Origin: a virus
Taxonomy: Duplodnaviria > Caudoviricetes
Virus record (IMG/VR): IMGVR_UViG_3300027974_000045
Span: 1-54,558 of that record
Length of the DNA stretch: 54,558 nucleotides
Strand: one strand, 5' to 3'
The position numbers and the translations under genes are program-made. Each line of letters opens with the position of its first letter. Positions within the stretch are counted from its first letter, which is position 1. The notes beneath the pieces were generated by a model. It was not told the origin of the DNA. It did not search any database and saw only the letters and a list, made by a program, of their open reading frames with translations. Positions 1-18,555 of the stretch are shown piece after piece.

Positions 1-24
1 GTCAGGGGCGGGGGGGCGGGGGCA
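1..24. repeat. 24-bp direct terminal repeat (circular assembly overlap)
   Basis: gtcaggggcgggggggcgggggca at 1-24 is identical to 54535-54558; the primase reading frame continues across the join. Confidence 0.95.
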
Positions 25-2786: not shown

Positions 2787-4324
2787 CCATGCACCGCCTC
2801 CAGAAGCAGCCCTTGCATCGACTGTTTCTGGCGGAGGCGCTGGTAGATTTTCCGTTCCACCGGGCTGCCGCTGACGTTGACGATCAGCTGGCTGTGCTTC
2901 TGGCCGGGCCGCGAGATGCGGGCGTTGGCCTGCTGGTAGGTCTCGTTGCTGGTGACCGGCGCATACCACAAGATGGTGGACGCAGCGGTCAGGGTCAGGC
3001 CATGGGACATGGCGGCTGGTTGTGCCACCAGTACGCGCGGCCCGCTCTTGTCGTTCTGGAACGCGCTGAAGACGGCGTCCCGGTCGGACTTGCTGACGTC
3101 GCCGCTGATCACGCAGACCTCGTAGTCTGCGCTCAGCTGCTCGGCCACGCGCCGGAGCACGCTCTTGTAGGGGACGAACACGATGGTCTTGGTGCCCGCC
3201 TCCTCGATGGCCTCACGGACCACGGCGATCCGGTGGTCGTTGTCGAGGATGACCTCCTCGCCGTCGGTCCCGTACACCACGCCGCAGGCGATCTGCACCA
3301 GCTTGGACATCTTGACCGCCTCGTTGACGGCCACGACTTGGCTGGTCCCCAGCTCCATCACCAGCTTGGCCGCCATGGTCTTGTAGGCGAGGGCCTGCTC
3401 CTTGGTCATGGGCACCTCCCGCTCGACATAGACGCACTCGGGCAGGTCGATGCAGTCATCCATGGTGAACCGGATGGCAGGCTGCATGGCGTCATGCACG
3501 ATGGTCGTGGCGTCATCCCGGGCGACGGTCTTGAAGGGGCCCAGCTTGCGGGTGACGGCGTCCTGAAACCGGCCGAAGAACTTCGGCACCCGCTCGGGCG
3601 AGATGATGCGGCACTGGGCCCAAGCATCCGTGGGTGCGTTGGGTGTCGGCGTGCCGGTCAGGCCCCACAGCCGCTCGCGGCCACGGCACACGGCGTTGAG
3701 TGACCGCCAACGCCCGGTGCGGGCGTTGCGGAACGACGCGATCTCGTCGATGACGATGGTGTCGATGTCAGTGCGGGCGACCAGTGCGTCCTGCATGACC
3801 TTCACCCCGTCATGATTTATCAGGTAAATGTCGGCGTCTAGGTCGAGCATCTTCTGACGGCGGGCCGATGCCCCGTGAAGCACGGACGTCTGCAGGTGAG
3901 GGAAGTGACGGAACACCTCGTCCGCCCACGTGCGCTCCAGCGTGGACAGGGGCGAGATGACCAGCATCTTGCTCGCCATCCCGATGGACCGCAGGTAGTC
4001 GAACGCCCACAGGGTGGACAGGGTCTTGCCGGTCCCCATGTCCGACAGGACGAAGGCGCGGGGGTTGAGGCTCAGGAACCCTGCCGTCTCACGCTGTGCA
4101 TGGAACGGCTTGTACTCGCCGGACCAGTCATAGTGGTACTCGGTCGGCGACGGCGCGTTGATGCCAAGGTTCCGCAGCACCCGGGTCTCGGCCACGTTGT
4201 GGGGGACAGAGACCATGGTCATGCCGTGGTAGTCGAACGCCTTGGCCGACGGGATGACGGTCGTCACCCGGGCCGGGTCCTTCAGCTTGAGCACCAGCTT
4301 CTGGCTCTTGCGGGAGATGATCAC
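2783..4324 (-). CDS. SNF2-family (SF2) helicase
   Basis: DMGTGKT, VIDE, LTGTP, HGLTLT, QANARISRPGQ; GTG start at 4324 overlaps the upstream stop. Confidence 0.92.
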   Translation of the reverse strand: MIISRKSQKLVLKLKDPARVTTVIPSAKAFDYHGMTMVSVPHNVAETRVLRNLGINAPSPTEYHYDWSGEYKPFHAQRETAGFLSLNPRAFVLSDMGTGKTLSTLWAFDYLRSIGMASKMLVISPLSTLERTWADEVFRHFPHLQTSVLHGASARRQKMLDLDADIYLINHDGVKVMQDALVARTDIDTIVIDEIASFRNARTGRWRSLNAVCRGRERLWGLTGTPTPNAPTDAWAQCRIISPERVPKFFGRFQDAVTRKLGPFKTVARDDATTIVHDAMQPAIRFTMDDCIDLPECVYVEREVPMTKEQALAYKTMAAKLVMELGTSQVVAVNEAVKMSKLVQIACGVVYGTDGEEVILDNDHRIAVVREAIEEAGTKTIVFVPYKSVLRRVAEQLSADYEVCVISGDVSKSDRDAVFSAFQNDKSGPRVLVAQPAAMSHGLTLTAASTILWYAPVTSNETYQQANARISRPGQKHSQLIVNVSGSPVERKIYQRLRQKQSMQGLLLEAVHG

Positions 4325-7408: not shown

Positions 7409-9307
7409 CTAGCTCCTCTCAACAGCTGTCATCGAGCCCCACGACTTCCCCATCTTCACGTCGACAGGGAAGGCGACAGGCAGGTCCACGCCCCACGCTT
7501 TCTTGTAGGGCAGGTTGTCCAGCAGGTGGCCGATCTGGTGAGCGGCCTTCTCTGCGTAGCGGTCGGGCACGATGATGAACACACCATCGTGCAGCTCATA
7601 CGAAAACCGGCCGTCGAACTTGGGCAGCCAGTCGCGCAGGGCCATGAGCCCGAGGTACTTCTGGTCAGCACCCGTGCCTTGGACGGGGCCGTTGATAGCC
7701 GTGCTCTCCATGGCCCATGACCAGTCGGCCCAGCCCGAGGGGTCGGCCGCGTCGGGCCTGATCCACGTGTCGCCCTTGCCGGTGTGGATGCGCCGGCCGG
7801 CGACGGTGGTGACGTAGCCCTCCATGCGTGCGGTCTTGCTCTGGCGGGCCCAGTAGGTGGGCACCCCGGGATAGGTCGAGCGGTAGGTGGCGTGGATGGC
7901 GCGCGCCTGCGGCAGCGTCAGGTCCAGCCCATACTGCACACGCGCCACGCGCTGCAGGGTTGGCGGGCTGGTGCGGTACTGGCACGAGAGGTTTCCGACC
8001 TTCCCCATCTGGCGGTACTGCTTGGCCTGCCTGTCGCCTTCCTTCACGGCGTCCATCATGGCGTGGTAGTTCTGCTCGGAGATGGCCGCACCCATGAACG
8101 CGTGGGCGTCCTCGCCCGGCATGCAGCGGGCGATCATCTCCCGGTCCTTGGACAGCACCGCCATCCAGCGGAACTCCTGCCCGGACCAGTCGGCCTCGAT
8201 CAAGGTGTAGCCGTCGGGTGCGAGGATCACGTCACGAAAGGCAGGGTCTCGCTTCCACTGGTGGAGAGCGATGCCCGTCGGCTTCTGCGCCTTGCCCTTC
8301 AGGATCGACGAGCTGTAGGTCATGCGCCCAGTGTAGGTGCCGGACACCCGGGCGGCGGGCCTGACCCGGCCGTCGTCGTTGTAGTTGGACGAGTTGACCG
8401 CACCCAAGGCAAACTTGGTGCGGTTGTTGGTGGCCTCGCGATAGTCGTTGAGCAGGCCGGCGCGTGGGTCCTCGAACGCCAGCTGGCTGAGGCTGTCACG
8501 GTCGGTGCTGTCGGCCCCCTTCTCGGTCTGCTTCACAGGCTTGAGGCCCCACTGTTTGAACAGCAGGTCACGCAGCTTGGTCGGCGACGCCAGCACCTCG
8601 ACGTCGACGGGTCCGCCGCATGCCATCGACAGCTTCACGTGGGCAAGGGTGGCGTCATCCAGCAGCTTCTCCGCCAACGTGGCGGCTGCGTTCCTGTCAA
8701 CCACCAGCCCCTCGACGTTGGCCTCGGCCACCATGGGCAGGCATGCCGCCTCGATGCGGGCGGCAACGCGCTGCTCGGGTGACATCATGTGCCAGAAGGT
8801 GTTGGCCAGCCACAGGGTATAGACGGCGTCCCGCTTGTTGTAGGTTGCCAGCTTGTCGAGGCCATCGGGTGACAGGTCGTCGTAGTCAACCCCGTCCTCG
8901 TAGCCTGCCATGCCCGGCATGAACTGGCGGACGGCATCCTTCAGGCCGTAGGACTTCGGCACGCCGTCAGCCATGGGGTGGCCGGCGGTGCAGTGCTTCC
9001 ACCACAGCATGGCGTCGGCCCACTTGCAGGCGAACACCTCCTCGCGCAGACCCATGGCGATCAGCCAGCCCATGTCGAACGGGGTGTTCCACCCGACGAT
9101 GGTCACGCCACGATCGGCGCAGTCCACCAGCCACGCACGCAGGGTCGCCTTGTCCGGCCGGCGCAGGCAGACAGCGCCGGTGACAGGCGAGGCCATGGCG
9201 CACATGGTCATGTAGGCAGCGCCCGACCGGGCGAGGTAGGGCTGTAGCCCTGCCCCCTCCCGGTCCCCGGTGGTCTCGACGTCGAAGGCTTCGAGTAGCG
9301 GGCTCAT
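7409..9307 (-). CDS. polA: Family A DNA polymerase with 3'-5' exonuclease
   Basis: Start MSPLLEAFDVETTG (ExoI), WNTPFD (ExoII), YNKRD (ExoIII), TGR, motif A ADWSGQEFR, motif B RQMGKVGNLSCQY, motif C LHDG. The track start at 9604 is an over-extension. Confidence 0.93.
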   Translation of the reverse strand: MSPLLEAFDVETTGDREGAGLQPYLARSGAAYMTMCAMASPVTGAVCLRRPDKATLRAWLVDCADRGVTIVGWNTPFDMGWLIAMGLREEVFACKWADAMLWWKHCTAGHPMADGVPKSYGLKDAVRQFMPGMAGYEDGVDYDDLSPDGLDKLATYNKRDAVYTLWLANTFWHMMSPEQRVAARIEAACLPMVAEANVEGLVVDRNAAATLAEKLLDDATLAHVKLSMACGGPVDVEVLASPTKLRDLLFKQWGLKPVKQTEKGADSTDRDSLSQLAFEDPRAGLLNDYREATNNRTKFALGAVNSSNYNDDGRVRPAARVSGTYTGRMTYSSSILKGKAQKPTGIALHQWKRDPAFRDVILAPDGYTLIEADWSGQEFRWMAVLSKDREMIARCMPGEDAHAFMGAAISEQNYHAMMDAVKEGDRQAKQYRQMGKVGNLSCQYRTSPPTLQRVARVQYGLDLTLPQARAIHATYRSTYPGVPTYWARQSKTARMEGYVTTVAGRRIHTGKGDTWIRPDAADPSGWADWSWAMESTAINGPVQGTGADQKYLGLMALRDWLPKFDGRFSYELHDGVFIIVPDRYAEKAAHQIGHLLDNLPYKKAWGVDLPVAFPVDVKMGKSWGSMTAVERS

Positions 9308-9870
9308 GACGTCACCTCCAGCGCGTGGACGACGCGCTCGTTGTCCTCGCACAGCTGCAGCGCCGCCTCGTAGGTGTGCCAGCGCCGGGCCCGGTCGAGT
9401 GAGCGTGTGTAGGGTTTCACATAGCCGACGGGGGCGGCGTAGGCCCGCTGCCCCGACGTGCGCATGATGATCCACGGCATCTCGTCGGTCCTCGCCAGCC
9501 GCGCTGCGTGCTGGGTGCAGTTGTGCATGATCGAGCTGTGGTGGCGGTTCATGAACCTGCCGATCTGCGTGAACTTGTAGCCCTGCTGGCGCATCAGCCA
9601 GCACGCCTCGTTGCGGGCCAGCACGATCAGCCCACGGGGGCGGGGCGCGTCGCGCTCCAGCGGGGCGGCGATGCGCCCCGCTGGGATGTGGTAGCGGTGG
9701 GACACCCCTCTCAGGATGTCCGCCATGCTCGGGCGGGGCGGGGCTTTAACGTCGGCCCCTGCGACGGCGCTCGCCTCAGCGAAAGGAGTATTCTGATCGA
9801 GCGCAGCCGGTGATACTACCGCCTCGGAACCGGCTTGGCGGGTGACCCCTCCACGGGATGGGATAGACAT
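9304..9870 (-). CDS. DnaA domain IV-like HTH DNA-binding protein
   Basis: DILRGVSHRY...IVLARNEACWLMRQQGYKFTQIGRFMNRHHSSIMH resembles the DnaA C-terminal signature ARQIAMYL...IG..F..RDHTTV.H. Confidence 0.7.
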   Translation of the reverse strand: MSIPSRGGVTRQAGSEAVVSPAALDQNTPFAEASAVAGADVKAPPRPSMADILRGVSHRYHIPAGRIAAPLERDAPRPRGLIVLARNEACWLMRQQGYKFTQIGRFMNRHHSSIMHNCTQHAARLARTDEMPWIIMRTSGQRAYAAPVGYVKPYTRSLDRARRWHTYEAALQLCEDNERVVHALEVTS

Positions 9871-9902: not shown

Positions 9903-9917
9903 ATTTACCGGGTAAAT
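9903..9917. promoter_or_regulatory. 15-bp palindrome
   Basis: gg-atttaccgggtaaat-cc, intergenic. Confidence 0.8.
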
Positions 9918-9923
9918 CCCGGG

Positions 9924-11033
9924 TCAGAACATCTCGACGATCTCGCCCCACGGGGCCTTGCCGGACTGGGTGGTCGCCCACAGCACCGGATAGGCAGGGG
10001 CTGGGCCGAAGTCGTTGCAGCACAGGTCGGTCAGCACCACGGTCACGGCGGGCTCGATGCCTGCCTTGTCGATGTAGCTGAAGATCGGCGAGAAGGCAGT
10101 GCCGCCGCCGCCATGGGCAGCCACGGTCAGCTCCTCGTCGGGGCCGAACTCGTCGTGGTGCTGCACCCGGCTGTCGAAGTAGACGACGTGGGTGCGACGG
10201 GGCGAGCAGTCGCCGAGGATGGCGCGCATCTCTGCGGCAAACGCGGCCAGCTCCTTGGCCCCGATGGAGCCCGAGGTGTCGACGGCGATGACCACCTCAC
10301 CCATGCCCTCGCCGTCCCGGGTGGGGACGAGCAGGTCGTAGGTCAGGTAGACTTGGTTGAGGTTGGCGTAGCTGTAGTCGTCCTTGATCTTGGACGTCAT
10401 CCAGCGGCGCAGCACCTCCTGCCACGGAACCTTGGGGTTCAGCAGCTCGTCGACCATGCGGGCGATGTCGCCCGGCAGCTGGCCCCGCATCTTGGCGGCG
10501 TTGGCAGCCTGAGCCACGGCAGCCTTGACCTCGGCAGCCATGGCGGCAGCCTCCGACGGGTCGCCGGGCGCATCCATCACCTCGTCTAAGGCCGTGCCGT
10601 TGCCGGACGCACCGCCGCCACCACCCTTGGGCTGGTCAGGCAGGAGGTTGTAGACGCCGACGGTGTCCTTGCCACGGGCGACGAGGTCAGGATCGTTGAG
10701 CCCGATGGATGGCATGCGGCCGACGCCTGCCTTGATCAGCATGTCGTTGATCACATAGTCGGCGGCGATGTTCCACTTCTGTGGGTCACGGTCGCCACGG
10801 CGCAGCATGTGCTGGAACACGCAGTGCATGACCTCGTGGCAGCAGACGAACACGGTCTCGTCGACAGACATGCTGTCGACAAAGGCAGGGTTGAACCAGA
10901 TGGTCTTGCCATCGGTCGCCATGGTGGGGATCGTGGTGCTCTCGACGAGGGGCATCTTGAGCATGAGGGTGGCGAAGAAAGCGTGCCAGAGCATGAGCTG
11001 GCCGCGGGCCTTGGTCATCTTGTCCATGGACAT
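9924..11033 (-). CDS. HExxH metallopeptidase-vWA fusion (DUF2201-like)
   Basis: TMATDG, HEVMH, WNIAADYVIN, MIDAS motif DTSGS, GGGGT, VLTD. Confidence 0.88.
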   Translation of the reverse strand: MSMDKMTKARGQLMLWHAFFATLMLKMPLVESTTIPTMATDGKTIWFNPAFVDSMSVDETVFVCCHEVMHCVFQHMLRRGDRDPQKWNIAADYVINDMLIKAGVGRMPSIGLNDPDLVARGKDTVGVYNLLPDQPKGGGGGASGNGTALDEVMDAPGDPSEAAAMAAEVKAAVAQAANAAKMRGQLPGDIARMVDELLNPKVPWQEVLRRWMTSKIKDDYSYANLNQVYLTYDLLVPTRDGEGMGEVVIAVDTSGSIGAKELAAFAAEMRAILGDCSPRRTHVVYFDSRVQHHDEFGPDEELTVAAHGGGGTAFSPIFSYIDKAGIEPAVTVVLTDLCCNDFGPAPAYPVLWATTQSGKAPWGEIVEMF

Positions 11034-11076
11034 TGGGGTAGCCTTTCAGGTTGGGGTGTAAAGAATTGGGTAACTA

Positions 11077-11105
11077 AAACTACGGCGGATAGGCATAGCT
11101 GTCAA
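11077..11105 (-). promoter_or_regulatory. Sigma70-type promoter upstream of the vWA gene
   Basis: TTGACA-N17-TAGTTT. Confidence 0.55.
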
Positions 11106-11358
11106 GCGCGCCGAACGCTTGCATTACCTCGAACGCAGCCTTGGCCGAGGTGATGTCAGGGAAGGGGCCGGAGATGGTCTTGCCCCGGCCCTTGGTGATC
11201 AGGATGTTCGTGAGCGGGTCGACACGGGTGACGATCCAGTAGTTCTTTTCCCACTGCTCGATGAACACCCGAGGGGGGTGTGGCACCTCGGGGTGCCACT
11301 GGCTGAAGGTCCCCTCGGGGCGGACGTGACGGCGGTGACGCCACTCACCGAGCGCCAT
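11080..11358 (-). CDS. Hypothetical protein
   Basis: GGAGG RBS, overlaps upstream gene. Confidence 0.55.
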   Translation of the reverse strand: MALGEWRHRRHVRPEGTFSQWHPEVPHPPRVFIEQWEKNYWIVTRVDPLTNILITKGRGKTISGPFPDITSAKAAFEVMQAFGALDSYAYPP

Positions 11359-12193
11359 ACATTTCCTCCATCTTTGCCATCATGTCGGCCATCTCGTCGA
11401 CCACGGCCTCACGCTTGTGCGGCTGGACCCGCAGCTGGCCCGGGGTGTGGGCGCAGAGCGAGCCCTGCAGCCTGACACGCATGGCCTCGAGGTGAGGGTC
11501 GTCGGTCAGGTTGAGGCTGGGCAGGATGCTCACCAACTCCTGCGCGTTCTCGACGAGGCTGTCACGGAACACGTTCTCCGGGCCGGACAGGCGCTCGTGG
11601 GCCTTGGCCACCACGTCGTGGATGCGTGACCACGCCTCACGCATGGCCTCCTCGGTGTTGGCGCTGATCTGTGCGGTCAGCTGCTCACGCAGGTCCTTGA
11701 TGGCGTCGTCGCCGAGCGAGACCCGGAAGTCATCGCCGACCGGCATGAACGCCACCTCGAACCGGAACCGCCGGCGCAGCTCGTACACCGACGGGTAGTC
11801 AGCGTCGCTGTACATGCCGCCCAGCCGCTGGGGTGCGGCCGCCTTGAGTGCGGGGTAGTCCTGCATGAAGTGGTCGGCGACGCCCTCCCACTGCGACTTG
11901 TAGTCGCCGAGCCGCTTGGCGAAGGCCATGTAGCCGACCGCCTTGCAGATGCGGGCGACCGGGCCCCACGGCAGGGTGTTGGCGAGGAAGTAGGTGCGCA
12001 CCTCGCCGGTGAGCTTCTGCAGGTCGGCGAGGCTGGCAGCGCCGGGCAGCAGGGACTTGTTGACCCGGGCCACGTCGTTGCGGATGCCGTGCTTGGCGGC
12101 GACGTCGAGGGTCTCGCGCTTGTCCAGCTTGCGGGCGGACCACTGCGACATGTTGAGCGATACGAGGAGGGCGCGATCTGCGAGGGAAGTCAT
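11345..12193 (-). CDS. DUF3150-like helical protein
   Basis: WSARKLD, TLPW, F..DYP, YPS..ELR.RF, LNLTDDP; lies between the ATPase and vWA genes. Confidence 0.6.
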   Translation of the reverse strand: MTSLADRALLVSLNMSQWSARKLDKRETLDVAAKHGIRNDVARVNKSLLPGAASLADLQKLTGEVRTYFLANTLPWGPVARICKAVGYMAFAKRLGDYKSQWEGVADHFMQDYPALKAAAPQRLGGMYSDADYPSVYELRRRFRFEVAFMPVGDDFRVSLGDDAIKDLREQLTAQISANTEEAMREAWSRIHDVVAKAHERLSGPENVFRDSLVENAQELVSILPSLNLTDDPHLEAMRVRLQGSLCAHTPGQLRVQPHKREAVVDEMADMMAKMEEMYGAR

Positions 12194-12238
12194 GTGGTAG
12201 TCTCCTTGGGTGTGCGGGGCCCCACCATGGGGCCCCTG

Positions 12239-12253
12239 ATTTACCGGGTAAAT
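12239..12253. promoter_or_regulatory. 15-bp palindrome
   Basis: atttaccgggtaaat, intergenic, next to a GC hairpin at 12216-12236. Confidence 0.8.
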
Positions 12254-12259
12254 GGGGTA

Positions 12260-13258
12260 TCAGGCCCCGGCGATCATCTTGCCGGTGGTGATGGCCCACT
12301 TGATGAACGTCTTGCTCTCCTGCAGCTTGGGCAGGCGGGCAACCACGTCACCGATGACGACCGCCGAGAACTCGGCGGGCAGGCGGTTCACGAATGTCAT
12401 CACGTCGGCGAAGTTCGCCTCGGTGGTGGCCATGGCCAGCGAGCTGGCGACAGCGAACCGGATGTCCGGCTTCTCCGGCACCGGGTGGGTGTCGGGGGCC
12501 TTGAGGATGTCCGAGATGCGGGGCAGGTCACGCCACATCCGCATGTGGGCCTTGAACTCTGCGGCCGGGCCCTCGCCGACAGCTCCGGCGAACAGCTCGT
12601 ACTCGAGGTGCTCGGGCAGCTGGCCGATGAACGGCGAGATACCCTCGGCCCACGCACGGGGCGTGGGGTTGATGTCCCGGTTGGGGTCGAAGCTGTGCAG
12701 CAGGTCGGTCTTGAACCTCAAGAACGCGATCAACTCCATGCGCACACCGGCCGGGATAGCCCACGCCACCCAGTCGTCGAGGCTGACATCGTAGGTCAGC
12801 GTCGTCATGCGGTTGCGCAGGTGGGACAGGATGCGGTTGGCCCCGGCCCTGTCACTGGCGCGGTTGCCGGTCATGACGATCGACCAGCCAGCCTTGAGCT
12901 TGTGCCCGTGGATTTCCCGCTCCTGCACAAGGTTGGCGAGGATTTTCTGTATGGCGTTGTCCGCCTGCGGGGCCTCGTCGATCAGGATCACGCCAGCGTC
13001 CGGGTAGTCGGTACCCTCCAGCGGCCAGCAGGAGTTGGCGATGAAGTTATAAGACAGGCGGTCAACGCTCGGCATGCCGAGCGCGACATGCTCGGGCAGC
13101 ATGGTCGGCGCATGGAAGAGCAGGATCGGCAGGCCCATGGACTTGGCCACCTGCTGCACCACCTGCGTCTTGCCGCCGCCGGGGGGGCCTTCGATCATGA
13201 CCGTGCGACGGCCGGTGATCATGACGCGGAGGACATTGGAAAGGTCGGAGGGTTTCAT
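12260..13258 (-). CDS. MoxR/CbbQ-like AAA+ ATPase
   Basis: GPPGGGKT, ILIDE, TGN sensor, LRNR Arg finger, TPRAW. Confidence 0.9.
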   Translation of the reverse strand: MKPSDLSNVLRVMITGRRTVMIEGPPGGGKTQVVQQVAKSMGLPILLFHAPTMLPEHVALGMPSVDRLSYNFIANSCWPLEGTDYPDAGVILIDEAPQADNAIQKILANLVQEREIHGHKLKAGWSIVMTGNRASDRAGANRILSHLRNRMTTLTYDVSLDDWVAWAIPAGVRMELIAFLRFKTDLLHSFDPNRDINPTPRAWAEGISPFIGQLPEHLEYELFAGAVGEGPAAEFKAHMRMWRDLPRISDILKAPDTHPVPEKPDIRFAVASSLAMATTEANFADVMTFVNRLPAEFSAVVIGDVVARLPKLQESKTFIKWAITTGKMIAGA

Positions 13259-13276: not shown

Positions 13277-13291
13277 ATTTACCGGGTAAAT
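13277..13291. promoter_or_regulatory. 15-bp palindrome
   Basis: Between the promoter and the ATPase RBS. Confidence 0.8.
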
Positions 13292-13332: not shown

Positions 13333-13361
13333 AGTATAGCAGAAGTTGCAGTCTATGTCAA
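13333..13361 (-). promoter_or_regulatory. Strong sigma70 promoter for the ATPase operon
   Basis: TTGACA-N17-TATACT. Confidence 0.8.
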
Positions 13362-13576
13362 GACCCCTCACAGTATTCGACCGGGACCTGTGAGTAGAGC
13401 CATGCTGCTGCCTTCAGGTAACCTTGGGCAGCCAGTGTCTTTGCTACGGCGGCGATCGTGTCACCTGATATGTCAGCCGCAAGCTGGCGGCTGTGACCTG
13501 TGATGGTCTGGCCGGTCAGCACCTCGGTAAAGAACGCGCGCTGGGTAGCAAGCGAGCAGGTGTCATGCAGGGTCAT
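13358..13576 (-). CDS. Small hypothetical protein
   Basis: GGAG RBS within the upstream gene's 3' end. Confidence 0.55.
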   Translation of the reverse strand: MTLHDTCSLATQRAFFTEVLTGQTITGHSRQLAADISGDTIAAVAKTLAAQGYLKAAAWLYSQVPVEYCEGS

Positions 13577-13805
13577 CGGGGTTCTCCATCTCTAGGGGTT
13601 CGACCTCGCGGTCGTGAGCGGGCCATGTGTTGCCCGGCCATTCCGCCCGCTTGTGTGGGTCCGGGTGCGGGACCAGCAGTCGGAGCAGCAAGGGGTAGTG
13701 TCCCGGGTTGTTTGCCTTAACCACGACAGCGACGTGCCCCCTCACAGGCCCGTCCACGCCCTTGCCCTTGATCCTCACCCAGTCGCCGACCTTGAACTCA
13801 CTCAT
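13563..13805 (-). CDS. SH3/KOW-like mini-protein (array member)
   Basis: MSEFKVGDWVRI...GHVAVVV...EVEPL. Confidence 0.7.
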   Translation of the reverse strand: MSEFKVGDWVRIKGKGVDGPVRGHVAVVVKANNPGHYPLLLRLLVPHPDPHKRAEWPGNTWPAHDREVEPLEMENPDDPA

Positions 13806-13984
13806 CTCGGCAGCTCCTTCAAGGCCGCACGCACCTCCCGCTCCAGCTGGCGCAGGTCCTCACGGGCCCGGGCTACCATGGTGTCGGTGGTCCACCCGTG
13901 GGTGGTGTTGTGGGCGGTGAGCGCCCGGGTTTTTATTGACAGCAGCAGGTCCTTGGCCTGCGGGGACAGGACGACGTAGGTCAT
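13802..13984 (-). CDS. Small helical protein (HxWTTD family, copy 1)
   Basis: Start MTYVVLS at 13984 with GGAGGAG RBS; HGWTTDTMVARAREDL. Confidence 0.6.
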   Translation of the reverse strand: MTYVVLSPQAKDLLLSIKTRALTAHNTTHGWTTDTMVARAREDLRQLEREVRAALKELPR

Positions 13985-14202
13985 GGGGTCTCCTCCAGAA
14001 GTTTGAAGTGATCGGTTGAGAGGTACAGGTAGGTGCGGCCCTGTCCCCGCAGGTAGTCGCGGACGTAGGGTGTCGGGCACAGCGGACGGACGGCGACGCC
14101 TCCGTTCAGGAAGCGAGTGCGGTCTTCGACGACCACGCAAACCATGTCCTTGTAGCGGCCGGCAGTGCAGCAAACGACGACATCACCCGGTTGGAAAGTC
14201 AT
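13981..14202 (-). CDS. SH3/KOW-like mini-protein (array member)
   Basis: MTFQPGDVVVC...YKDMVCVVVE...VRPL. Confidence 0.7.
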   Translation of the reverse strand: MTFQPGDVVVCCTAGRYKDMVCVVVEDRTRFLNGGVAVRPLCPTPYVRDYLRGQGRTYLYLSTDHFKLLEETP

Positions 14203-14473
14203 CGGGTCCTCCTATCCTTGTCAGTTCGCTGGCGCGCATCTCCGTGAGCTGGCCGGGGGCGGGGCGTGTCCAGTTGTCCCTCGCAGGGTTGCCCACCAGT
14301 ATCACGATCGACGCCACCCAGTGCCCGTAGGTGCCGGGCGTGAGGATGCAGTGCTGGACGATGTAGGTGTGGCCCTCACCCCTGCTCTCGGTGATGCGGA
14401 CCACATCCCCCTCCTTGAGCGGGGGCGGGGGCTCGGTCGAGGGGGCGGGTTTCGATCTGGGTTTACGTGCCAT
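14183..14473 (-). CDS. SH3/KOW-like mini-protein (array member)
   Basis: LKEGDVVRI...ASELTRI. Confidence 0.65.
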   Translation of the reverse strand: MARKPRSKPAPSTEPPPPLKEGDVVRITESRGEGHTYIVQHCILTPGTYGHWVASIVILVGNPARDNWTRPAPGQLTEMRASELTRIGGPDDFPTG

Positions 14474-14726
14474 CTGGGTTCTCCACGAGTTGTAGCCATG
14501 CGGTCTTGAGCAACAGGTAATCCCTACCGACCTCGTTCAAGTGTGCCCGGACGGGGGGTGCGGCCACCAGCGGGCGCACCGGGGTGTTGCCCTGCATCGA
14601 GTAGGGGGGGTCGGGCGGATACTCGATCACGACACCAACCATGCCCTTGTACCTTTTGCGGTACTCGGGACTGGGCGGCAAGCCTTTGGAGAAGCACACG
14701 ACGTCTCCTATCTTGAAGTCAGTCAT
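14463..14726 (-). CDS. SH3/KOW-like mini-protein (array member)
   Basis: MTDFKIGDVVCF...YKGMVGVVIE...VRPL...LQLVENP. Confidence 0.7.
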   Translation of the reverse strand: MTDFKIGDVVCFSKGLPPSPEYRKRYKGMVGVVIEYPPDPPYSMQGNTPVRPLVAAPPVRAHLNEVGRDYLLLKTAWLQLVENPDGT

Positions 14727-14931
14727 CTGTTTTACCCGGTAAATACGGGTCCTCTACTAAGGTGAAGCTGTTGGGGTAGTCTCTGAGGCGGGGCTTGTCC
14801 CACCAGTAGGGTACGCCCAGCAGGAACCGCACCGTGATGGTGCCGTCCCCGGTGTGGGTGGTGACCACGACCCCCAGCTCCTCCCCCTCGTACTTGTAGC
14901 GGACGAGGTCGCCGGGCTTGAGCCTCACCAT
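14719..14931 (-). CDS. SH3/KOW-like mini-protein (array member)
   Basis: MVRLKPGDLVRY...LGVVV...ITVRF...FTLVED. Confidence 0.7.
   Translation of the reverse strand: MVRLKPGDLVRYKYEGEELGVVVTTHTGDGTITVRFLLGVPYWWDKPRLRDYPNSFTLVEDPYLPGKTDD
14730..14744. promoter_or_regulatory. 15-bp palindrome (1 mismatch, opposite centre)
   Basis: ttttacccggtaaat at a gene junction. Confidence 0.75.
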
Positions 14932-15218
14932 GCCAGTGGCCTCCGCTCGTGGGCCATGCGCAGCAGGCATGTTGTGTCCCAGCACGCTACCACGCGGTGT
15001 GCAATGTGGGCGGCCGAGATGGAGCGGTCGCCAAGCAGGGTGTCTGGCAGGGTGGCGAGGTCCCGCCGCACCTTGTCACTGGCGTCGGTCGTCCAGAGAT
15101 GGGCAGCGTCGAGGGCCTCGCCGATGGCGTGGAACAGCAGTTGCCTGACCGTGTCGGCGGACATGGGTGCGGGGCGGGTATGGTGGGTGGGTGTGGGGGT
15201 CGTGGTTACCATGGTCAT
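14925..15218 (-). CDS. Small helical protein (HxWTTD family, copy 2)
   Basis: Start MTMVTT at 15218 with AAGGAG RBS; HLWTTDASDKVRRDL. Confidence 0.55.
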   Translation of the reverse strand: MTMVTTTPTPTHHTRPAPMSADTVRQLLFHAIGEALDAAHLWTTDASDKVRRDLATLPDTLLGDRSISAAHIAHRVVACWDTTCLLRMAHERRPLAW

Positions 15219-15466
15219 TCTCCTTCGGGGTCTAGGGGCATGGGGGTTACTTCGTTGGCGTTGAACCACCAGCCGCCGCTGGCATACGCGTCCGGGTCAC
15301 CACGCTGGGCGAGCGAGGGATCGAACGTGCCAAGGAACCGCAGCTTGACGCCGTCGGGACCTGTATCCACCACCATCCCGGCGGCAGGCAGGGCGAAGGG
15401 CGGCTGGCCCCGGCTGTATTGTTTCACGGGCACGAGGGCCCAGTCGCCTATCTTGAAGTCAGTCAT
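15215..15466 (-). CDS. SH3/KOW-like mini-protein (array member)
   Basis: MTDFKIGDWALV...GMVVD...VKLRF...WWFNANEVTP. Confidence 0.7.
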   Translation of the reverse strand: MTDFKIGDWALVPVKQYSRGQPPFALPAAGMVVDTGPDGVKLRFLGTFDPSLAQRGDPDAYASGGWWFNANEVTPMPLDPEGE

Positions 15467-15740
15467 CGTCGGTCTCCAGTGCCTCTAGGTTCCTGATCTG
15501 GTAGTGGGCCCGGCCTCCGTTCGCGAACCGCACGCCGACGGTCCACTCCGGCTGGGCTTCAGCCAGCCGCACCTCCTCGGCCGAGTACTTGTCGACCGCC
15601 GTCAGCGCGTCCTTGTGGTACATGCTGAACAGGTTCTCGATCCACCCCACCCAGCCGGGCTCGCCGTAGCCGTCGTAGGCATCGTAGGTGTCGGCGATCC
15701 GCACGGGCAGGCCGACATACAGTTTTGTGCCGCGTTTCAT
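15459..15740 (-). CDS. SH3/KOW-like mini-protein (array member)
   Basis: LYVGLPVRI...GWVGWI...VGVRF...NLEAL. Confidence 0.65.
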   Translation of the reverse strand: MKRGTKLYVGLPVRIADTYDAYDGYGEPGWVGWIENLFSMYHKDALTAVDKYSAEEVRLAEAQPEWTVGVRFANGGRAHYQIRNLEALETDDD

Positions 15741-15961
15741 GGCTCATTCTCCACGAGGGTCAGCCGGCTGACATGGGTGAAACCCCCATGGGCTATGACG
15801 CCGGCGTCGAGGGCGGGGTGCGGCAGCAGGGGCTTGAGCCACCGCTCGTGCGTGCCCTCGGGCAGCTTGTCGGAGCCCCACGGGACCACGACAAACAGGC
15901 ACCCCTTGAAGTGGGCGTTGTCGTTGATGGCGACGACGTCGCCTATCTTGATGTCAGCCAT
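15737..15961 (-). CDS. SH3/KOW-like mini-protein (array member)
   Basis: MADIKIGDVVAI...FKGCLFVVV...LKPL...LTLVENEP. Confidence 0.7.
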   Translation of the reverse strand: MADIKIGDVVAINDNAHFKGCLFVVVPWGSDKLPEGTHERWLKPLLPHPALDAGVIAHGGFTHVSRLTLVENEP

Positions 15962-16142
15962 CGATGATCTCCATCTCGTGGGCCCACATGGCCTGCTGCT
16001 CGGCACCGTCGACAAACCTGACGACCTGCGGCAACAGGCCGTCGAGGACCCACCCCACCTTGCCGACGTAGCTGATGGGGGTAGCCCCCTCGACGATGCG
16101 GACGAGGGAGCCGACGGGCAGGCTGGTATTGTGAACTCTCAT
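15954..16142 (-). CDS. SH3/KOW-like mini-protein (array member)
   Basis: LPVGSLVRI...YVGKVGWV...VVRFVDG...EMEII. Confidence 0.7.
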   Translation of the reverse strand: MRVHNTSLPVGSLVRIVEGATPISYVGKVGWVLDGLLPQVVRFVDGAEQQAMWAHEMEIIDG

Positions 16143-16363
16143 GGGGTTGGGACCTTTCTCAGGTGGATGGGGCGGTGGTTCGAGGTGTTGCCGTCCACTC
16201 CCCGCATGGTGGCGTACCAGATGCCCGAGTTATGGTACTTGTCGAACTTGACGACCCATCCGAACCACTGGCGCCTGCTGCCAAACACGACATAGTCGCC
16301 GACCTTGAGCCCGTTGTGGGCTTTGATGCGGCGTGGGCGGGATTTACCGGGTAAATCAGCCAC
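16139..16363 (-). CDS. SH3/KOW-like mini-protein (array member)
   Basis: LKVGDYVVF...FGWVVKF...HLRKV. Confidence 0.7.
   Translation of the reverse strand: MADLPGKSRPRRIKAHNGLKVGDYVVFGSRRQWFGWVVKFDKYHNSGIWYATMRGVDGNTSNHRPIHLRKVPTP
16342..16356. promoter_or_regulatory. 15-bp palindrome
   Basis: atttaccgggtaaat at a gene junction. Confidence 0.8.
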
Positions 16364-16784
16364 GGCCCTTGCCCCCGTGGATTTCGGTGGTCTGCAGTAT
16401 CTCGGCCATCCGGCGCATGTTCCGCGCCCGGGTCTCCGCCTCGATGGCCGGCTCCTTTACCACGCGCCAGTGCAGGCGGACGGCGTCCCGCATGGCGAGA
16501 AAGATCGCACGCTCGGCCTCGTAGCGGCCACGTCCGTCGGCCGCCATGTCGCCACCCGAGGGGAGCGAGTGGGTGCCCTCACGGGCGATCAGGTGGTATG
16601 CCTCCGCCTCGGCGGCAGGGGCCTCGACCCCACGGTTTGCGGCGTTGACGAGGTCGAGCCCCGCCAGCGCCATGCGGCGCACGATGTGGCCCCACTCAAG
16701 CGCGGGGTTGCGCATGGCCGCCATCATGGCGTCGAGGATGTCGGTGGCGTCGCGGTAGCCATAGCCGTTGTTCGGGGTGGTCAT
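16356..16784 (-). CDS. Hypothetical helical early protein
   Basis: AAGGA RBS; first gene after the 16.9-kb promoter. Confidence 0.7.
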   Translation of the reverse strand: MTTPNNGYGYRDATDILDAMMAAMRNPALEWGHIVRRMALAGLDLVNAANRGVEAPAAEAEAYHLIAREGTHSLPSGGDMAADGRGRYEAERAIFLAMRDAVRLHWRVVKEPAIEAETRARNMRRMAEILQTTEIHGGKGRG

Positions 16785-16809
16785 GGTGTCAGTCCTTTCA
16801 GGGTCAGGG

Positions 16810-16824
16810 ATTTACCGGGTAAAT
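16810..16824. promoter_or_regulatory. 15-bp palindrome
   Basis: Between promoter and RBS. Confidence 0.8.
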
Positions 16825-16871
16825 GGGTCGGGCCCGGCACTGGTTGGGAGGGGTCTCTCAACACAACCTGT

Positions 16872-16900
16872 ATTATGGCACATTTGTGATGCTATGTCAA
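16872..16900 (-). promoter_or_regulatory. Strong sigma70 promoter for the mini-gene array
   Basis: TTGACA-N17-CATAAT, bracketed by a 9-bp inverted repeat aacacaacc/ggttgtgtt. Confidence 0.75.
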
Positions 16901-16941
16901 TGGTTGTGTTAATGGATGGGGCCACGGCTGGATGCCGTATG

Positions 16942-17190
16942 TCAGGGTGTGGGGGCCTTCTGGAGCTCGTCGTAGCCGAACCACCACGTCTCGCCGCTGA
17001 CGATATGCCGGCACTTGCAGGTGCTGGAGGCAAGGTCGATCACCACCAGCAGTGACGGGGACTTCATGACAGGCGGGGTGCGCAGCAGGCGACCACCCGT
17101 CAGGGCCGTGATGCTGTCCAGCCGCCACGGGTTGGCGCAGGTGACCACGTCACCTAGGGCGAAGGGGGCTGCGAGGTCGTGGTCAGTCAT
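16942..17190 (-). CDS. SH3/KOW-like mini-protein (array member)
   Basis: PFALGDVVTC...LVVID...WWFGYDELQK. Confidence 0.65.
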   Translation of the reverse strand: MTDHDLAAPFALGDVVTCANPWRLDSITALTGGRLLRTPPVMKSPSLLVVIDLASSTCKCRHIVSGETWWFGYDELQKAPTP

Positions 17191-17524
17191 GGGGATTTAC
17201 CGGGTAAATGTCGTCGCCGATGACCCACTTGTGGGTGCCATCGACCATGCGGATGATCCACGCAGGCGTCATGACGAAGGTATCGGAGGCGAGGGGGTGC
17301 GTGGGCTCGGCGCGGGGGTAGAGGCTCACCACCCACCCCACGGAGCCTTCGGGGTGAATGTTGGCGATCGCGTAGCTGGAGCCAGAGAGACGCCACCCCG
17401 GCTCGTGGGGTATGGGCGTAGCCGTGCGGGCCAGACGGCGCTTGAGCGCCACGCAGTCGCCGGGGGCGAAGGCGGGCTCAGGTGTGGGCGCAGGGTTGGT
17501 AGGGTGTCGGGGTGTGGGGGGCAT
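17183..17524 (-). CDS. SH3/KOW-like mini-protein (array member), possibly leaderless
   Basis: FAPGDCVAL...GSVGWVV...IIRMVDG; ATG is 7 nt from a -10 box. Confidence 0.6.
   Translation of the reverse strand: MPPTPRHPTNPAPTPEPAFAPGDCVALKRRLARTATPIPHEPGWRLSGSSYAIANIHPEGSVGWVVSLYPRAEPTHPLASDTFVMTPAWIIRMVDGTHKWVIGDDIYPVNPHD
17195..17209. promoter_or_regulatory. 15-bp palindrome
   Basis: atttaccgggtaaat at a gene junction. Confidence 0.8.
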
Positions 17525-17530
17525 GAAGCG

Positions 17531-17559
17531 AGATTATGGCCGGGGCCGGGAAATGTCAA
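17531..17559 (-). promoter_or_regulatory. Sigma70 promoter heading the early arm
   Basis: TTGACA-N17-TAATCT. Confidence 0.6.
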
Positions 17560-17569: not shown

Positions 17570-17584
17570 ATTTACCCGGTAAAT
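17570..17584. promoter_or_regulatory. 15-bp palindrome
   Basis: atttacccggtaaat, 10 bp upstream of a -35 box. Confidence 0.8.
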
Positions 17585-17588: not shown

Positions 17589-17625
17589 TCACGCTATGTC
17601 TGCCCACAGACATAGCGTGATTTTT
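17589..17625 (+). other. Perfect 14-bp stem-loop followed by T5
   Basis: tcacgctatgtctg-ccca-cagacatagcgtga-ttttt. Confidence 0.75.
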
Positions 17626-18453
17626 AGGGGTGCGCAAGCGGAAACGCCACGAGGGGGCTCGCGCAGCGCCCGGGGACACCACCGGGGGACGAATGCGCGC
17701 TGAAAATGGTTGAGAATCGTGGTTTTTGGAGGAAAAAGTGTAGGGATTTCGGGGACTTGCCAGAGATGTCTAAGATGTACGCCTTTTTTGAGGGTGTCGG
17801 GGTTTTGGGGCCATTTTTGGCCGGGATGGGGGGTAAACTGGACGGTCACATCCAAACAACCCTAAATTAGGGACCAAAAAAAGTGGGATTGGTTTTACAA
17901 CCTAACAAATCAATGAATACAGCTTTTGTGGTTTATCTTTTTTCCTAACCCATTGGTTTCGTTGGATTTCTCCGATGGCTTCCCGCCGGCCCCCCCGCGT
18001 GCATCGCACCTAGCAGGGTACCCGTTCGGGCTAAGTGGTTGATTCTTATGACATACACGTAACCCGTCGCCAATTGCACAATTGTCGCCCAATATCGGGG
18101 CTCCGCCCCGGACCCCGGCAAACCCCCGTGGCGTAAGGATTTCCGGCTCATTTCCCTGTGACCGATTTATAACCGTAAATATCGCCCTCCGGCCACATGT
18201 TCCGCTATACATGCCGGGGTTTTATGCGCAGTTGCTAATGTATGCAGCCCCCGGGTGTATTTCGCAACCTGATCGGGTATTTCAAATAGTTCCACCGTCC
18301 AAAAATGAAACCCAGTCTATCCACATTTCGATGCGGTATGCCCAGATCGGGTATGTTTTCGTGCAACCCACGATCACATATGCCCGCCTACGCCTGCCCG
18401 GCCCGCGCGCCCCACACATGTGCGGTTTCCTCTTAGGGCGGCGCGGCGCTGGC

Positions 18454-18468
18454 ATTTACCCGGTAAAT
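18454..18468. promoter_or_regulatory. 15-bp palindrome
   Basis: ggc-atttacccggtaaat-gcc upstream of the 18556 gene. Confidence 0.8.
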
Positions 18469-18555
18469 GCCGCCCCCTTGAATGTGGGCGGATGGGGCCC
18501 TATCTACTTGTGACCGGCGCATTCCGCGACCGGCCAAACCGAAAGAGACCTCACC

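What the first reader, a model, noticed from the sequence alone, without database searches (positions are those of the whole stretch)
13563..17524. Tandem array of about 12 divergent SH3/KOW-like mini-paralogs in the early operon
Seen: twelve 62-113 aa ORFs start with a shared pattern (FKVGDWV, FQPGDVV, LKEGDVV, FKIGDVV, LKPGDLV, FKIGDWA, LYVGLPV, IKIGDVV, LPVGSLV, LKVGDYV, FALGDVV, FAPGDCV). Most then show G-x-V-V and V-R-(F/P) strands and a terminal (E/D)-L-x-x-V-like strand, with highly variable loops between. Closer pairs are visible (13981 with 14463; 15954 with 17183). Most overlap their neighbours and sit behind near-consensus sigma70 promoters. Known: this pattern is typical of SH3-like/KOW/Tudor beta-barrels, and single copies are common in phages. 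Inference: a dozen copies on one scaffold with variable loops suggests a diversified binder repertoire (anti-defence, host takeover, or adaptors for the downstream AAA+/vWA machine). I do not know of a described system like this.
Basis: partly seen in the sequence, partly recalled or inferred. Interest (0 to 1): 0.85.

Follow-up and report, generated by a model that had tools for sequence, protein, structure and literature searches.

The report
Tandem SH3-like mini-protein family in phage
An uncultured freshwater phage carries about a dozen very diverged copies of one small beta-barrel (SH3/KOW-like) protein in a row at the start of its leftward operon, a lineage-specific gene expansion whose function is untested.

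Summary
Window 13563-17524 (minus strand) carries 12 small ORFs with coding-type GC3 (0.74-0.87), most with overlapping start and stop codons. Ten have [FLI]xxGDx[VA] near the N-terminus. These are the only 10 of 302 small ORFs in the window with that motif.

Family membership by sequence:
- Leave-one-out HMMs place 10 of 12 above all 215 decoy ORFs.
- hhalign places 6 of the 7 non-core members above all decoys.
- o06 (15459-15740) is not supported by sequence.

AlphaFold2 models of o11 (pLDDT 92) and of the motif-less o04 (pLDDT 89) are SH3-like barrels. Their nearest solved folds are Spt5/NusG KOW, PWWP and PsaE. No Pfam, PHROG or NCBIfam family is matched.

The array is lineage-specific:
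- 0 hits in 80 loci that share the neighbouring MoxR ATPase.
- 0 hits in 5 whole related records.
- No tblastn match for o11 or o12 in 50,697 deposited phage records.
- Only 7 outside clusters, all on short metagenome contigs.

The function is inferred, not shown. I read them as diversified protein-binding modules for host takeover or counter-defence. The "adaptor for the AAA+/vWA machine" idea is disfavoured. This is a new variant of a known kind. The nearest precedent is the three dispersed LSm-like early proteins of T4.

The parts
17183..17524 (-). o01, 113 aa, FAPGDCV at residues 19-25; long b1-b2 insert; ends ...IYPVNPHD across the palindrome
   Evidence: GC3 0.82. Leave-one-out HMM 9.7 bits, above all 215 decoys. 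7.8 bits without the motif. hhalign 19%, N-terminus only.
16942..17190 (-). o02, 82 aa, FALGDVV at residues 10-16
   Evidence: Leave-one-out 10.7 bits, above all decoys, but no signal once the motif is removed. The Atlas's own model has pLDDT 0.60, with neighbours NdhO, KN17_SH3 and CRR42-like. This is a lead only.
16356..16784 (-). Non-family ORF, 142 aa; first gene behind the 16900 promoter
   Evidence: No Pfam hit. Scores near zero against the family.
16139..16363 (-). o03, 74 aa, LKVGDYV at residues 19-25; the only basic member (pI 11)
   Evidence: Leave-one-out 10.7 bits. hhalign 70% over 59 columns.
15954..16142 (-). o04, 62 aa, degenerate motif LPVGSLV; minimal five-strand barrel
   Evidence: AF2 pLDDT 89.1, pTM 0.74. 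Foldseek best matches are SPT5 KOW5/6, CPH, YorP and Kin17, with TMq 0.63-0.81. hhalign 50%. Fails the leave-one-out HMM.
15737..15961 (-). o05, 74 aa from the ATG that overlaps the o04 stop (the ORF finder lists 92 aa up to 16015); IKIGDVV
   Evidence: (P0002). Leave-one-out 13.7 bits.
15459..15740 (-). o06, 93 aa, LYVGLPV; membership not shown
   Evidence: Fails. Weak pairwise links to o04 (E 0.017) and o01 (E 0.026). The Atlas's own model has pLDDT 0.63, with neighbours NifZ and DUF8139 at TM about 0.57.
15215..15466 (-). o07, 83 aa, FKIGDWA
   Evidence: hhalign 95.5% over 70 columns.
14925..15164 (-). Non-family ORF (79 aa from the ATG at 15164); weak WTTD...R.DL similarity to ORF 13802-13984
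   Evidence: E 0.025.
14719..14931 (-). o08, 70 aa from the ATG that overlaps the upstream stop (ORF finder: 88 aa up to 14985); LKPGDLV; C-terminus crosses a palindrome copy
   Evidence: (P0007). Leave-one-out 21.4 bits. Closest window member to the outside proteins P0024 and P0063.
14463..14726 (-). o09, 87 aa, FKIGDVV; clear paralogue of o11
   Evidence: E 4e-12, 41% identity to o11. Leave-one-out 23.7 bits.
14183..14473 (-). o10, 96 aa, Pro/Lys-rich N-terminal extension, then LKEGDVV
   Evidence: hhalign 91% over 74 columns.
13981..14202 (-). o11, 73 aa, FQPGDVV; barrel with a helix between strands 3 and 4
13802..13984 (-). Non-family ORF, 60 aa
13563..13805 (-). o12, 80 aa, FKVGDWV; last family member
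   Evidence: Leave-one-out 29.8 bits, and 12.8 bits without the motif.
13358..13576 (-). Non-family ORF, 72 aa; last gene before the ATPase promoter
16872..16900 (-). sigma70-like promoter TTGACA-17-CATAAT (11 of 12)
17533..17559 (-). Weaker promoter-like site TTGACA-15-CATAAT, ending 8 nt before the o01 ATG
   Evidence: Read. Not reported by the scan, because the spacer is 15 nt.
13333..13361 (-). sigma70-like promoter TTGACA-17-TATACT, upstream of the MoxR ATPase gene; marks the downstream end of the array
12260..13258 (-). MoxR-type AAA+ ATPase, the downstream neighbour (not part of the family)
   Evidence: Pfam AAA_5 and AAA.

Best explanation
The region is a lineage-specific, tandemly duplicated and strongly diverged family of 11 (possibly 12) stand-alone, single-domain SH3-like (KOW/Tudor-type) beta-barrel proteins of 62-113 aa. 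They lie in two or three translationally coupled operons at the promoter-proximal end of the leftward (probably early) arm of an uncultured freshwater podophage. The phage has a Bcep22-like structural module.

The conserved residues are the barrel core:
- strand 1: h-x-x-G-D-x-V
- strand 2: G-x-V-G-x-V-V
- strand 3: V-R-(P/F)-L, followed in the core subgroup by x-P-x-P and a helix
- last strand: h-x-x-L-x-E

The loops that form the ligand-binding face in SH3-type domains differ in length and sequence from copy to copy.

Inferred mechanism, not shown: each copy is a small protein-binding module made soon after infection. Each binds a different host protein (or a different variant of one), to take over host functions or block host defences. 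The array grew by duplication and divergence, possibly helped by recombination between the conserved 5' ends of the genes.
For: Shown:
- Real genes in one strand and operon layout.
- A non-random shared motif.
- Profile coherence for 11 of 12 members.
- One clear paralogous pair, E 4e-12.
- Outside homologues bridge members. P0024 hits o08, o11, o12 and o09 at E <= 1e-3 against a database of only 16 sequences.
- Confident SH3-like models for a core member and for a motif-less member. KOW, PWWP, PsaE, CPH and YorP are the nearest folds.
- Weak profile hits to solved structures are all SH3-like barrels, E 0.03-1.4.
- Conserved positions coincide with the strands, and loop lengths vary widely.
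- A 36-nt DNA repeat, 64-86% identical, lies at the starts of o12, o09, o07 and o05.

Lineage specificity: 0 family hits in 80 ATPase-sharing loci. 0 of 5 whole related records, with a positive control of 12 in the window's own record. 0 in Itty13, Bcep22 and Xp15.

The array probably persists in a relative. P0024, P0029 and P0058 are only 26-33% identical to each other. All three list the same longest contig of 3,270 bases.

Favouring protein ligands over nucleic-acid ligands: 11 of 12 members have pI 4.4-8.0 and net charge -6 to +1. No conserved surface residue stands out beyond the core.

Early timing is inferred from position, next to the divergent intergenic region and behind sigma70-like promoters.
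Against: - There is no functional, expression or interaction data, and no RNA run holds the sequence.
- The host is unknown.
- Only 2 of 12 members were folded with AlphaFold2. Both alignments contained the other paralogues, which may bias the models toward one fold.
- o06 is unsupported by sequence. o01 and o02 match the core profile only over the N-terminal motif.
- KOW and LSm relatives often bind RNA, so nucleic-acid binding is not excluded. One member, o03, is strongly basic.
- Database gene calls for o09, o10 and o01 start at an internal GTG just after the GD (P0001, P0009, P0011). For these three, translation of the motif is not certain.
It was not seen directly.
Confidence: 0.5

Rival explanations
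1. The copies are RNA-binding (or DNA-binding) KOW/LSm-like regulators. They act on transcripts or on the transcription-translation machinery, for example on mRNA stability, on antitermination, or by competing with the NusG KOW domain for Rho or S10.
For: The nearest solved folds are NusG/Spt5 KOW domains, and OapB, an RNA-binding KOW-like protein. The N-terminal F-x-x-G-D-x-V resembles the start of the NusG KOW domain as I recall it, and the profile weakly hits NusG (E 1.3). [quoted passage not shown] GoF mutants affect gene 41 mRNA level and growth on rho alleles (PMC12152347, section 2.2). o03 is basic, pI 11.
Against: 11 of 12 members are neutral to acidic. No member reaches Pfam KOW even at E <= 1. 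No Sm or Hfq chain appears in the listed top matches, which does not exclude them. Twelve different copies are hard to explain with a single conserved nucleic-acid target.
Confidence: 0.2
2. The copies are adaptors or substrates for the downstream MoxR AAA+ ATPase and the vWA/DUF2201 protein.
For: Adjacency. The array ends 99 nt upstream of the ATPase gene.
Against: The ATPase has its own near-consensus promoter. 80 loci that encode a 43-50% identical ATPase have 0 family members among 5,773 small ORFs. Five whole related records also have none. The ATPase module is therefore widespread without the array.
Confidence: 0.04
3. The ORFs are not a protein family. They are unrelated orphan ORFs that share an N-terminal pattern because of a DNA- or RNA-level signal at gene starts, such as a translation-initiation element.
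For: A 36-nt DNA repeat covers the starts of four genes. GGAGAC/GGCGAC inside the motif looks like a ribosome-binding site, and gene callers start three of the genes just after it. o01 and o02 match the core only over the motif.
Against: The motif lies 3-22 residues from the start, not at a fixed distance. With the motif removed, 6 of 12 members still beat all decoys. o07 and o10 align to the core over 70-74 columns at 91-95% probability. Both folded members, including one without the motif, give the same barrel. Outside homologues keep the motif as protein.
Confidence: 0.04
4. The copies are a real paralogous family but have little current function. They are leftover duplicates that drift, or selfish filler.
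For: Extreme divergence. No homologues in most relatives. [quoted passage not shown]
Against: All 12 frames are intact, with coding-type GC3 and coupled starts. The core residues are conserved. Divergent paralogues appear to be retained in a relative. Phage genomes are under packaging-size pressure (general knowledge).
Confidence: 0.1

Closest known systems
T4 GoF / MotB.1 / Frd.2 'LSm-like fold' family (PMC12152347; abstract and section 2.2 read)
   Same: Small early phage proteins. Their mutual similarity is invisible to BLASTP, yet they share a five-stranded SH3-topology beta-barrel. There are several copies per genome and the function is unknown.
   Different: T4 has three copies, named after different neighbouring genes. 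They are about 2x longer, with an added C-terminal domain, and are conserved across Tevenvirinae. Here there are 11-12 single-domain copies in tandem in 4 kb, absent from relatives. No sequence link to the T4 proteins was tested.
KOW domains of NusG/Spt5 and ribosomal proteins (Pfam PF00467)
   Different: No member reaches the Pfam KOW model even at E <= 1. The proteins stand alone, with no NGN domain or ribosomal context. The core subgroup has a P-x-P segment and a helix between strands 3 and 4.
Stand-alone small SH3-like proteins of phages and prophages: YorP, an NMR structure deposited as a B. subtilis protein (2heq); many uncharacterised BFVD entries
   Same: Same size and fold. YorP gives TMq 0.78 to o04. 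BFVD top hits are small uncharacterised proteins. There are two each from Streptomyces phage Wofford, Salinivibrio phage CW02, Siphoviridae sp. ctK0l2 and Bacillus phage G.
   Different: These are single or double occurrences as far as the listing shows. There is no detectable sequence relation. tblastn of o11 and o12 against 50,697 phage records at E <= 1 found nothing. I did not inspect those phages' gene order.
Cellular proteins with tandem KOW/SH3-like repeats in one polypeptide (for example P0005, a TIR domain plus five repeats)
   Same: The N-terminal half of the family profile (motif plus strand 2) matches these repeats. 62 of the 79 profile hits are proteins of this kind, 153-2,180 aa. 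Pfam names on 10 of them include KOW, SH3_15, NHase_beta_C and L21e.
   Different: Each repeat scores only 3-20 bits and mostly covers profile positions 3-31. This is a generic signature, not specific kinship. The repeats are fused in one chain, whereas here every copy is a separate gene.

Membership tests
SH3-like beta-barrel fold (structural class) | Five to six antiparallel strands forming a small closed barrel | tested here: met
   o11: strands at residues 8-11, 21-24, 35-40, 59-62 and 66-68, plus a helix at 45-54; pLDDT 92.2. o04: five strands, pLDDT 89.1. All top matches are SH3-like barrels. Only 2 of 12 members were folded. The others are assigned by profile similarity.
KOW (Pfam PF00467) / NusG-Spt5 KOW domain | Match to the KOW profile at or above the gathering score | tested here: not met
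   No PF00467 hit at E <= 1 for any of the 12. The family profile against solved structures gives NusG at E 1.3 only.
KOW (Pfam PF00467) / NusG-Spt5 KOW domain | Domain context: follows an NGN domain, or is part of a ribosomal protein (recalled definition) | tested here: not met
   All members are stand-alone 62-113 aa proteins. The profile search, which has no length limit, found no specific fused relative.
LSm/Hfq-like proteins (as proposed for T4 GoF family) | Strongly bent five-stranded sheet, usually with an N-terminal helix, forming ring oligomers (recalled definition) | tested here: inconclusive
   No Sm or Hfq chain is among the rows listed. The models have no N-terminal helix. Oligomer state was not tested.
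Tudor/PWWP 'royal family' | Aromatic cage that binds methyl-lysine or arginine (recalled definition) | not tested
Pfam DUF7245 / PHROG phrog_2858 | Profile match above threshold | tested here: not met
   o11 only: DUF7245 at 18.7 bits against a cut-off of 27. phrog_2858 at E 0.0028 over 39 residues. 0 of 12 members hit NCBIfam.

The most novel reading that the evidence does not exclude
The array is a phage-encoded repertoire of binders built on one minimal SH3-like scaffold. A dozen early-expressed copies, with diversified loops, each neutralise a different host defence or hub protein. The conserved 5' gene segments and the conserved 15-nt palindromes at gene junctions allow copies to be shuffled, gained and lost. 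This would be a multigene counter-defence family of a kind known from large eukaryotic viruses but not described for a 54-kb phage.
Probability: 0.2. Interest if true: 0.75.

Novelty: new variant of a known kind. Interest (0 to 1): 0.5.

Why it matters
Small early phage proteins are where many host-takeover and counter-defence functions have been found, but most are orphans that cannot be grouped. Here about 7% of a 54.5-kb genome is spent on one fold, copied about a dozen times and diverged beyond pairwise recognition. If the copies bind different targets, the array gives a natural series of related binders on a 60-80 residue scaffold. It would be a compact system for studying how phages diversify such proteins. 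It also shows that profile and structure comparison within a single genome can expose families that annotation pipelines miss: nothing reaches threshold in Pfam, and there are no significant hits in PHROGs or NCBIfam. If the copies prove dispensable, as the T4 LSm-like proteins are in the laboratory, the finding remains a clear case of lineage-specific gene expansion in a small phage.

Tried and rejected
N4-like phage with vRNAP hairpin promoters. I suspected this at first, because the MoxR ATPase hits N4-like phages and there is a 3,072-aa ORF. I rejected it. The giant protein matches only a DarB-like PHROG and one of unknown function. The structural genes are closest to Bcep22-like podophages at 33-36% identity.

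Searches for relatives that found nothing:
- megablast and blastn of the array against phages.
- o09 against 5.8 billion proteins: only its own cluster.
- P0029 and P0024 in viral contigs.
- Alignment A5 in genome contigs and in viral contigs.

The palindrome as a handle for relatives. 64 IMG/VR stretches hold the 15-mer, but none encodes a family member. I treat them as chance matches.

The first ATPase-based locus, L001, is a low-GC fragment with no array.

Sequencing runs. Two DNA runs labelled freshwater metagenome hold the stretch. Both may be the source of this DNA, and no RNA holder is listed. Laying them showed identical sequence and no variants, so there is no information on expression or microdiversity.

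The palindrome as an RNA hairpin. In 4 contexts the minimum-free-energy fold used the palindromic stem only once, and z-scores were unremarkable in 3 of 4.

Rfam found 0 families and tRNA search found 0 genes.

Full report
CONTEXT

The window is a complete IMG/VR virus record of 54,558 bases with direct terminal repeats. GC content is about 65%. Two DNA runs labelled freshwater metagenome hold it, and both may be its source.

Genes on the right arm (18.5-52 kb, plus strand):
- terminase, portal and major head protein
- tail fibre proteins and an internal virion protein
- a 3,072-aa protein whose C-terminus matches a DarB-like PHROG

The internal virion protein is 33-36% identical to those of Pseudomonas phage Itty13, Burkholderia phages Bcep22, DC1 and BcepIL02, and Sinorhizobium phage PBC5.

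The left arm (1-17.5 kb, minus strand) runs in this order: the small-ORF region studied here, a MoxR-type AAA+ ATPase (12260-13258), a DUF2201 metallopeptidase/vWA protein (9924-11033), family A DNA polymerase (7409-9604), a PD-(D/E)XK nuclease and an SNF2 helicase. A DUF927 protein lies at 52740-54509.

My first idea was an N4-like phage. I dropped it because nothing supports a virion RNA polymerase.

THE OBSERVATION

All twelve ORFs exist as described.
- Their GC3 is 0.74-0.87, higher than GC1 and GC2, as in real genes of this genome.
- 12 of the 15 junctions in the stretch 17524-13358 are overlaps of 4-20 nt, the pattern of translational coupling.
- Two ORFs most likely begin at an internal ATG that overlaps the upstream stop, giving 74 aa (15737-15961) and 70 aa (14719-14931). 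Database gene calls agree (P0002, P0007).
- Four ORFs in the stretch are not family members: 16356-16784, 14925-15164, 13802-13984 and 13358-13576.

The shared N-terminal pattern is not chance. [FLIVM]xxGDx[VALI] occurs 47 times in six frames of the whole window, and 10 of these lie in the coding frames of the array. Of 302 small ORFs (45-140 aa) in the window, 10 have it in the first 45 residues, and they are exactly the ten array members. The same count in three comparison phages was 4 of 230, 2 of 235 and 2 of 265, with no family-profile hit.

IS IT ONE FAMILY?

Pairwise comparison shows only one clear pair: o09 (14463) with o11 (13981), 41% identity, E 4e-12. A few borderline links exist.

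Profiles do better.
- In a leave-one-out test, 10 of 12 members scored above all 215 decoy ORFs of the same window and above 1,199-1,200 of 1,200 shuffles. o04 and o06, the two without G-D, failed.
- The members were chosen by the motif, so I cut everything up to and including it and repeated the test. 6 of 12 (o01, o05, o08, o09, o11, o12) still beat all decoys. o04 was beaten by one decoy.
- hhalign of single sequences against a core profile (five window members plus seven outside homologues) gave o07 95.5%, o10 91%, o03 70%, o04 50%, and o01 and o02 19% (N-terminal columns only). All are above the best decoy at 1.8%. o06 gave 0.6%.
- Even against all other members, o06 scored 14.4, and two of 215 decoys did as well.

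So 11 of 12 are supported by sequence, three of them (o01, o02, o04) only modestly. o06 is supported only by weak pairwise links (E about 0.02) and by position.

FOLD

AlphaFold2 was run with a 19-row alignment (12 paralogues plus 7 outside homologues).
- o11: pLDDT 92.2, pTM 0.80. Three strands, a helix (residues 45-54), then two strands.
- o04: pLDDT 89.1, pTM 0.74. Five strands.

Foldseek against the PDB gave no match at E <= 0.001, but every listed top match has a small SH3-like barrel.
- For o11: Spt5 and NusG KOW, PWWP, NdhS, PsaE and OapB, with TMq 0.5-0.66.
- For o04: SPT5 KOW5/6, CUL7/PARC CPH, YorP, Kin17 and L21e, with TMq 0.63-0.81. The KOW rows have rmsd 1.3-1.5 A.

The family profile searched against PDB sequences gave only weak hits (E 0.03-1.4). 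Apart from one to ribosomal protein S17 (which I recall as an OB fold) and one to a large Fe-S hydrogenase component, they are to proteins that contain SH3-like barrels: HERC2/MIB, nitrile hydratase beta, L21e, L27e and NusG.

For o06 and o02, the ESM Atlas holds its own low-confidence models (pLDDT 0.63 and 0.60). Their neighbours include NifZ, NdhO, KN17_SH3 and CRR42-like families, at TM 0.55-0.67. These are leads only.

The fold assignment is therefore good at the level of "SH3-like barrel, KOW/Tudor type". It is not membership of any named family. No member reaches Pfam's score cut-off, and the best hits are E 0.002-0.02 to SH3_15, DUF7245 and DUF7664. PHROGs gives at best E 0.0028. NCBIfam gives 0 of 12.

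Mapped on the o11 model, the conserved columns are the strands. Loop lengths differ widely between copies, by 6-34, 5-27 and 4-21 residues. The alignment in the loops is uncertain.

A feature specific to the core subgroup is (V/L)-R-(P/F)-L-x-P-x-P after strand 3, leading into the helix.

RELATIVES

The profile search of 1.84 billion representatives found 79 proteins at E <= 0.001.
- Ten are the window's own products or near-identical copies. o03 and o06 are not among them.
- Seven are small outside proteins: P0017, P0024, P0029, P0043, P0058, P0063 and P0075.
- 62 are longer proteins (153-2,180 aa). They match through several weak repeats of the N-terminal half of the profile (3-20 bits each). 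Ten of them scanned against Pfam carry KOW, SH3_15, NHase_beta_C, L21e and similar names. This is a generic signature, not kinship.

Among the outside small proteins:
- P0029 and P0017 are orthologues of o11 (56% and 50% identity).
- P0024 and P0063 are closest to o08 (34-38%).
- P0024 also hits o11, o12 and o09 at E <= 1e-3 against the 16-sequence database, which ties these members together.

All seven come from short metagenome contigs of at most 5.6 kb. P0024, P0029 and P0058 each list the same longest contig, 3,270 bases. I read this as three diverged paralogues side by side in a relative, but I could not fetch the contig.

The array is absent elsewhere.
- tblastn of o11 and o12 against 50,697 phage records at E <= 1 found nothing.
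- There are no hits in 185,579 species genomes or in IMG/VR with the o11 alignment.
- The MoxR ATPase next door has 1,414 homologues at E <= 1e-20. It has at least 405 loci in IMG/VR, of which the best 80 were kept (43-50% identity). In those 80 loci, 5,773 small ORFs gave 0 family hits, and at most 2 motif-bearing ORFs lay on the ATPase strand per locus.
- Five whole related records, three of them at least 90% complete, gave 0 hits. The same query gave 12 in the window's own record.

The array is therefore a lineage-specific expansion, not a routine feature of relatives. The ATPase/vWA module does not depend on it.

HOW IT PROBABLY WORKS

Shown: a family of stand-alone SH3-like barrels with a conserved core and variable loops, kept as intact, coupled genes at the promoter-proximal end of the leftward arm.

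Inferred:
- They are made early. This rests on their position beside the 0.95-kb divergent intergenic region and on sigma70-like promoters at 16900-16872 and, more weakly, 17559-17533.
- They act as protein-binding modules. This rests on the general use of SH3-type loops for ligand binding, on the neutral to acidic charge of 11 of 12 copies, and on the lack of any shared surface motif.
- Their targets are host proteins, in host takeover or counter-defence, by analogy with other small early phage proteins. For the review PMC11323111 I saw only the search listing.

I put 0.5 on this whole reading. The main rival is RNA or DNA binding in the manner of KOW or LSm proteins, at 0.2. It draws on the fold neighbours and on the T4 GoF family. 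The adaptor-for-MoxR idea (0.04) is weakened. The "DNA-level motif only" idea (0.04) is weakened.

COMPARISON AND NOVELTY

Single small SH3-like proteins are common in phages. A three-member, sequence-dissimilar family of early proteins with this topology is published for T4 (PMC12152347). What is new here:
- the copy number, 11-12
- the strict tandem arrangement in 4 kb of a 54.5-kb genome
- the single-domain architecture
- the restriction to one lineage

I rate it a new variant of a known kind, with interest 0.5.

Noticed in passing
window 24-38, 3815-3829, 9903-9917, 12239-12253, 13277-13291, 14730-14744, 16342-16356, 16810-16824, 17195-17209, 17570-17584, 18454-18468: An AT-rich 15-nt palindrome, ATTTACC(C/G)GGTAAAT, occurs at 11 sites. 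Nine carry the exact 12-nt core, one has 1 mismatch and one has 2. All lie in the left 18.5 kb and none in the right 36 kb. That is 22 strand matches against 0.77 expected. Most sites lie 3-45 nt upstream of a start codon or at a gene junction, and two lie about 35-55 nt downstream of the sigma70-like promoters. Outside homologues P0024 and P0085 end in G-I-Y-P-V-N (P0063 has IYPVT), which is this palindrome in translation, so it seems conserved in relatives. It does not fold as a stable RNA hairpin. An operator for a dimeric DNA-binding protein seems more likely. The 64 IMG/VR stretches that hold the 15-mer are unrelated.
   Followed up: partly
window 17589-17620 and 17600-18555: A perfect 14-bp inverted repeat with a 4-nt loop and a T-run on the plus strand (terminator-like) sits just upstream of the array. 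It lies at the edge of a non-coding stretch of about 0.95 kb with lower GC (0.60), between the leftward and rightward arms. This may be a control or origin region.
   Followed up: no
window 14925-15164 and 13802-13984: Two of the interleaved non-family ORFs share a short segment, H-x-W-T-T-D ... R-x-D-L (E 0.025 for the pair). They may be a second, two-member paralogue set inside the array.
   Followed up: partly
window 13782-13817, 14703-14738, 15443-15478, 15938-15973: A 36-nt direct DNA repeat, 64-86% identical, spans the last bases of the upstream gene and the first codons (M-T-D-F-K-I-G-D) of o12, o09, o07 and o05. It is a possible substrate for recombination between copies.
   Followed up: no
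window 14463-14726, 14183-14473, 17183-17524: Database gene calls for these three members (P0001, P0009, P0011) start at an internal GTG directly after the G-D. This is probably because GGAGAC/GGCGAC looks like a ribosome-binding site, and it drops the shared motif from the predicted proteins. Automatic annotation would therefore hide part of the family.
   Followed up: partly
window 42258-51476 and 28853-33886: A 3,072-aa protein matches a DarB-like antirestriction PHROG over residues 2710-3027 and an unknown-function PHROG over residues 2277-2917. A 1,677-aa protein has no PHROG match at all.
   Followed up: no
window 9924-13258; loci L072-L151: The MoxR-type ATPase is very widespread in uncultured phages. 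It has 1,414 homologues at E <= 1e-20 and at least 405 IMG/VR loci across GC 0.36-0.64. In this window a DUF2201 metallopeptidase/vWA gene lies two genes downstream of it. The function of the pair in phages is not known to me.
   Followed up: partly
protein P0005 (outside the window): A 600-aa protein from the representative library has an N-terminal TIR domain (E 9e-23) followed by five weak KOW/SH3-like repeats that match the N-terminal half of the family profile. TIR domains occur in defence systems, so this may be a defence protein with SH3-like sensor repeats. Nothing links it specifically to this phage.
   Followed up: no
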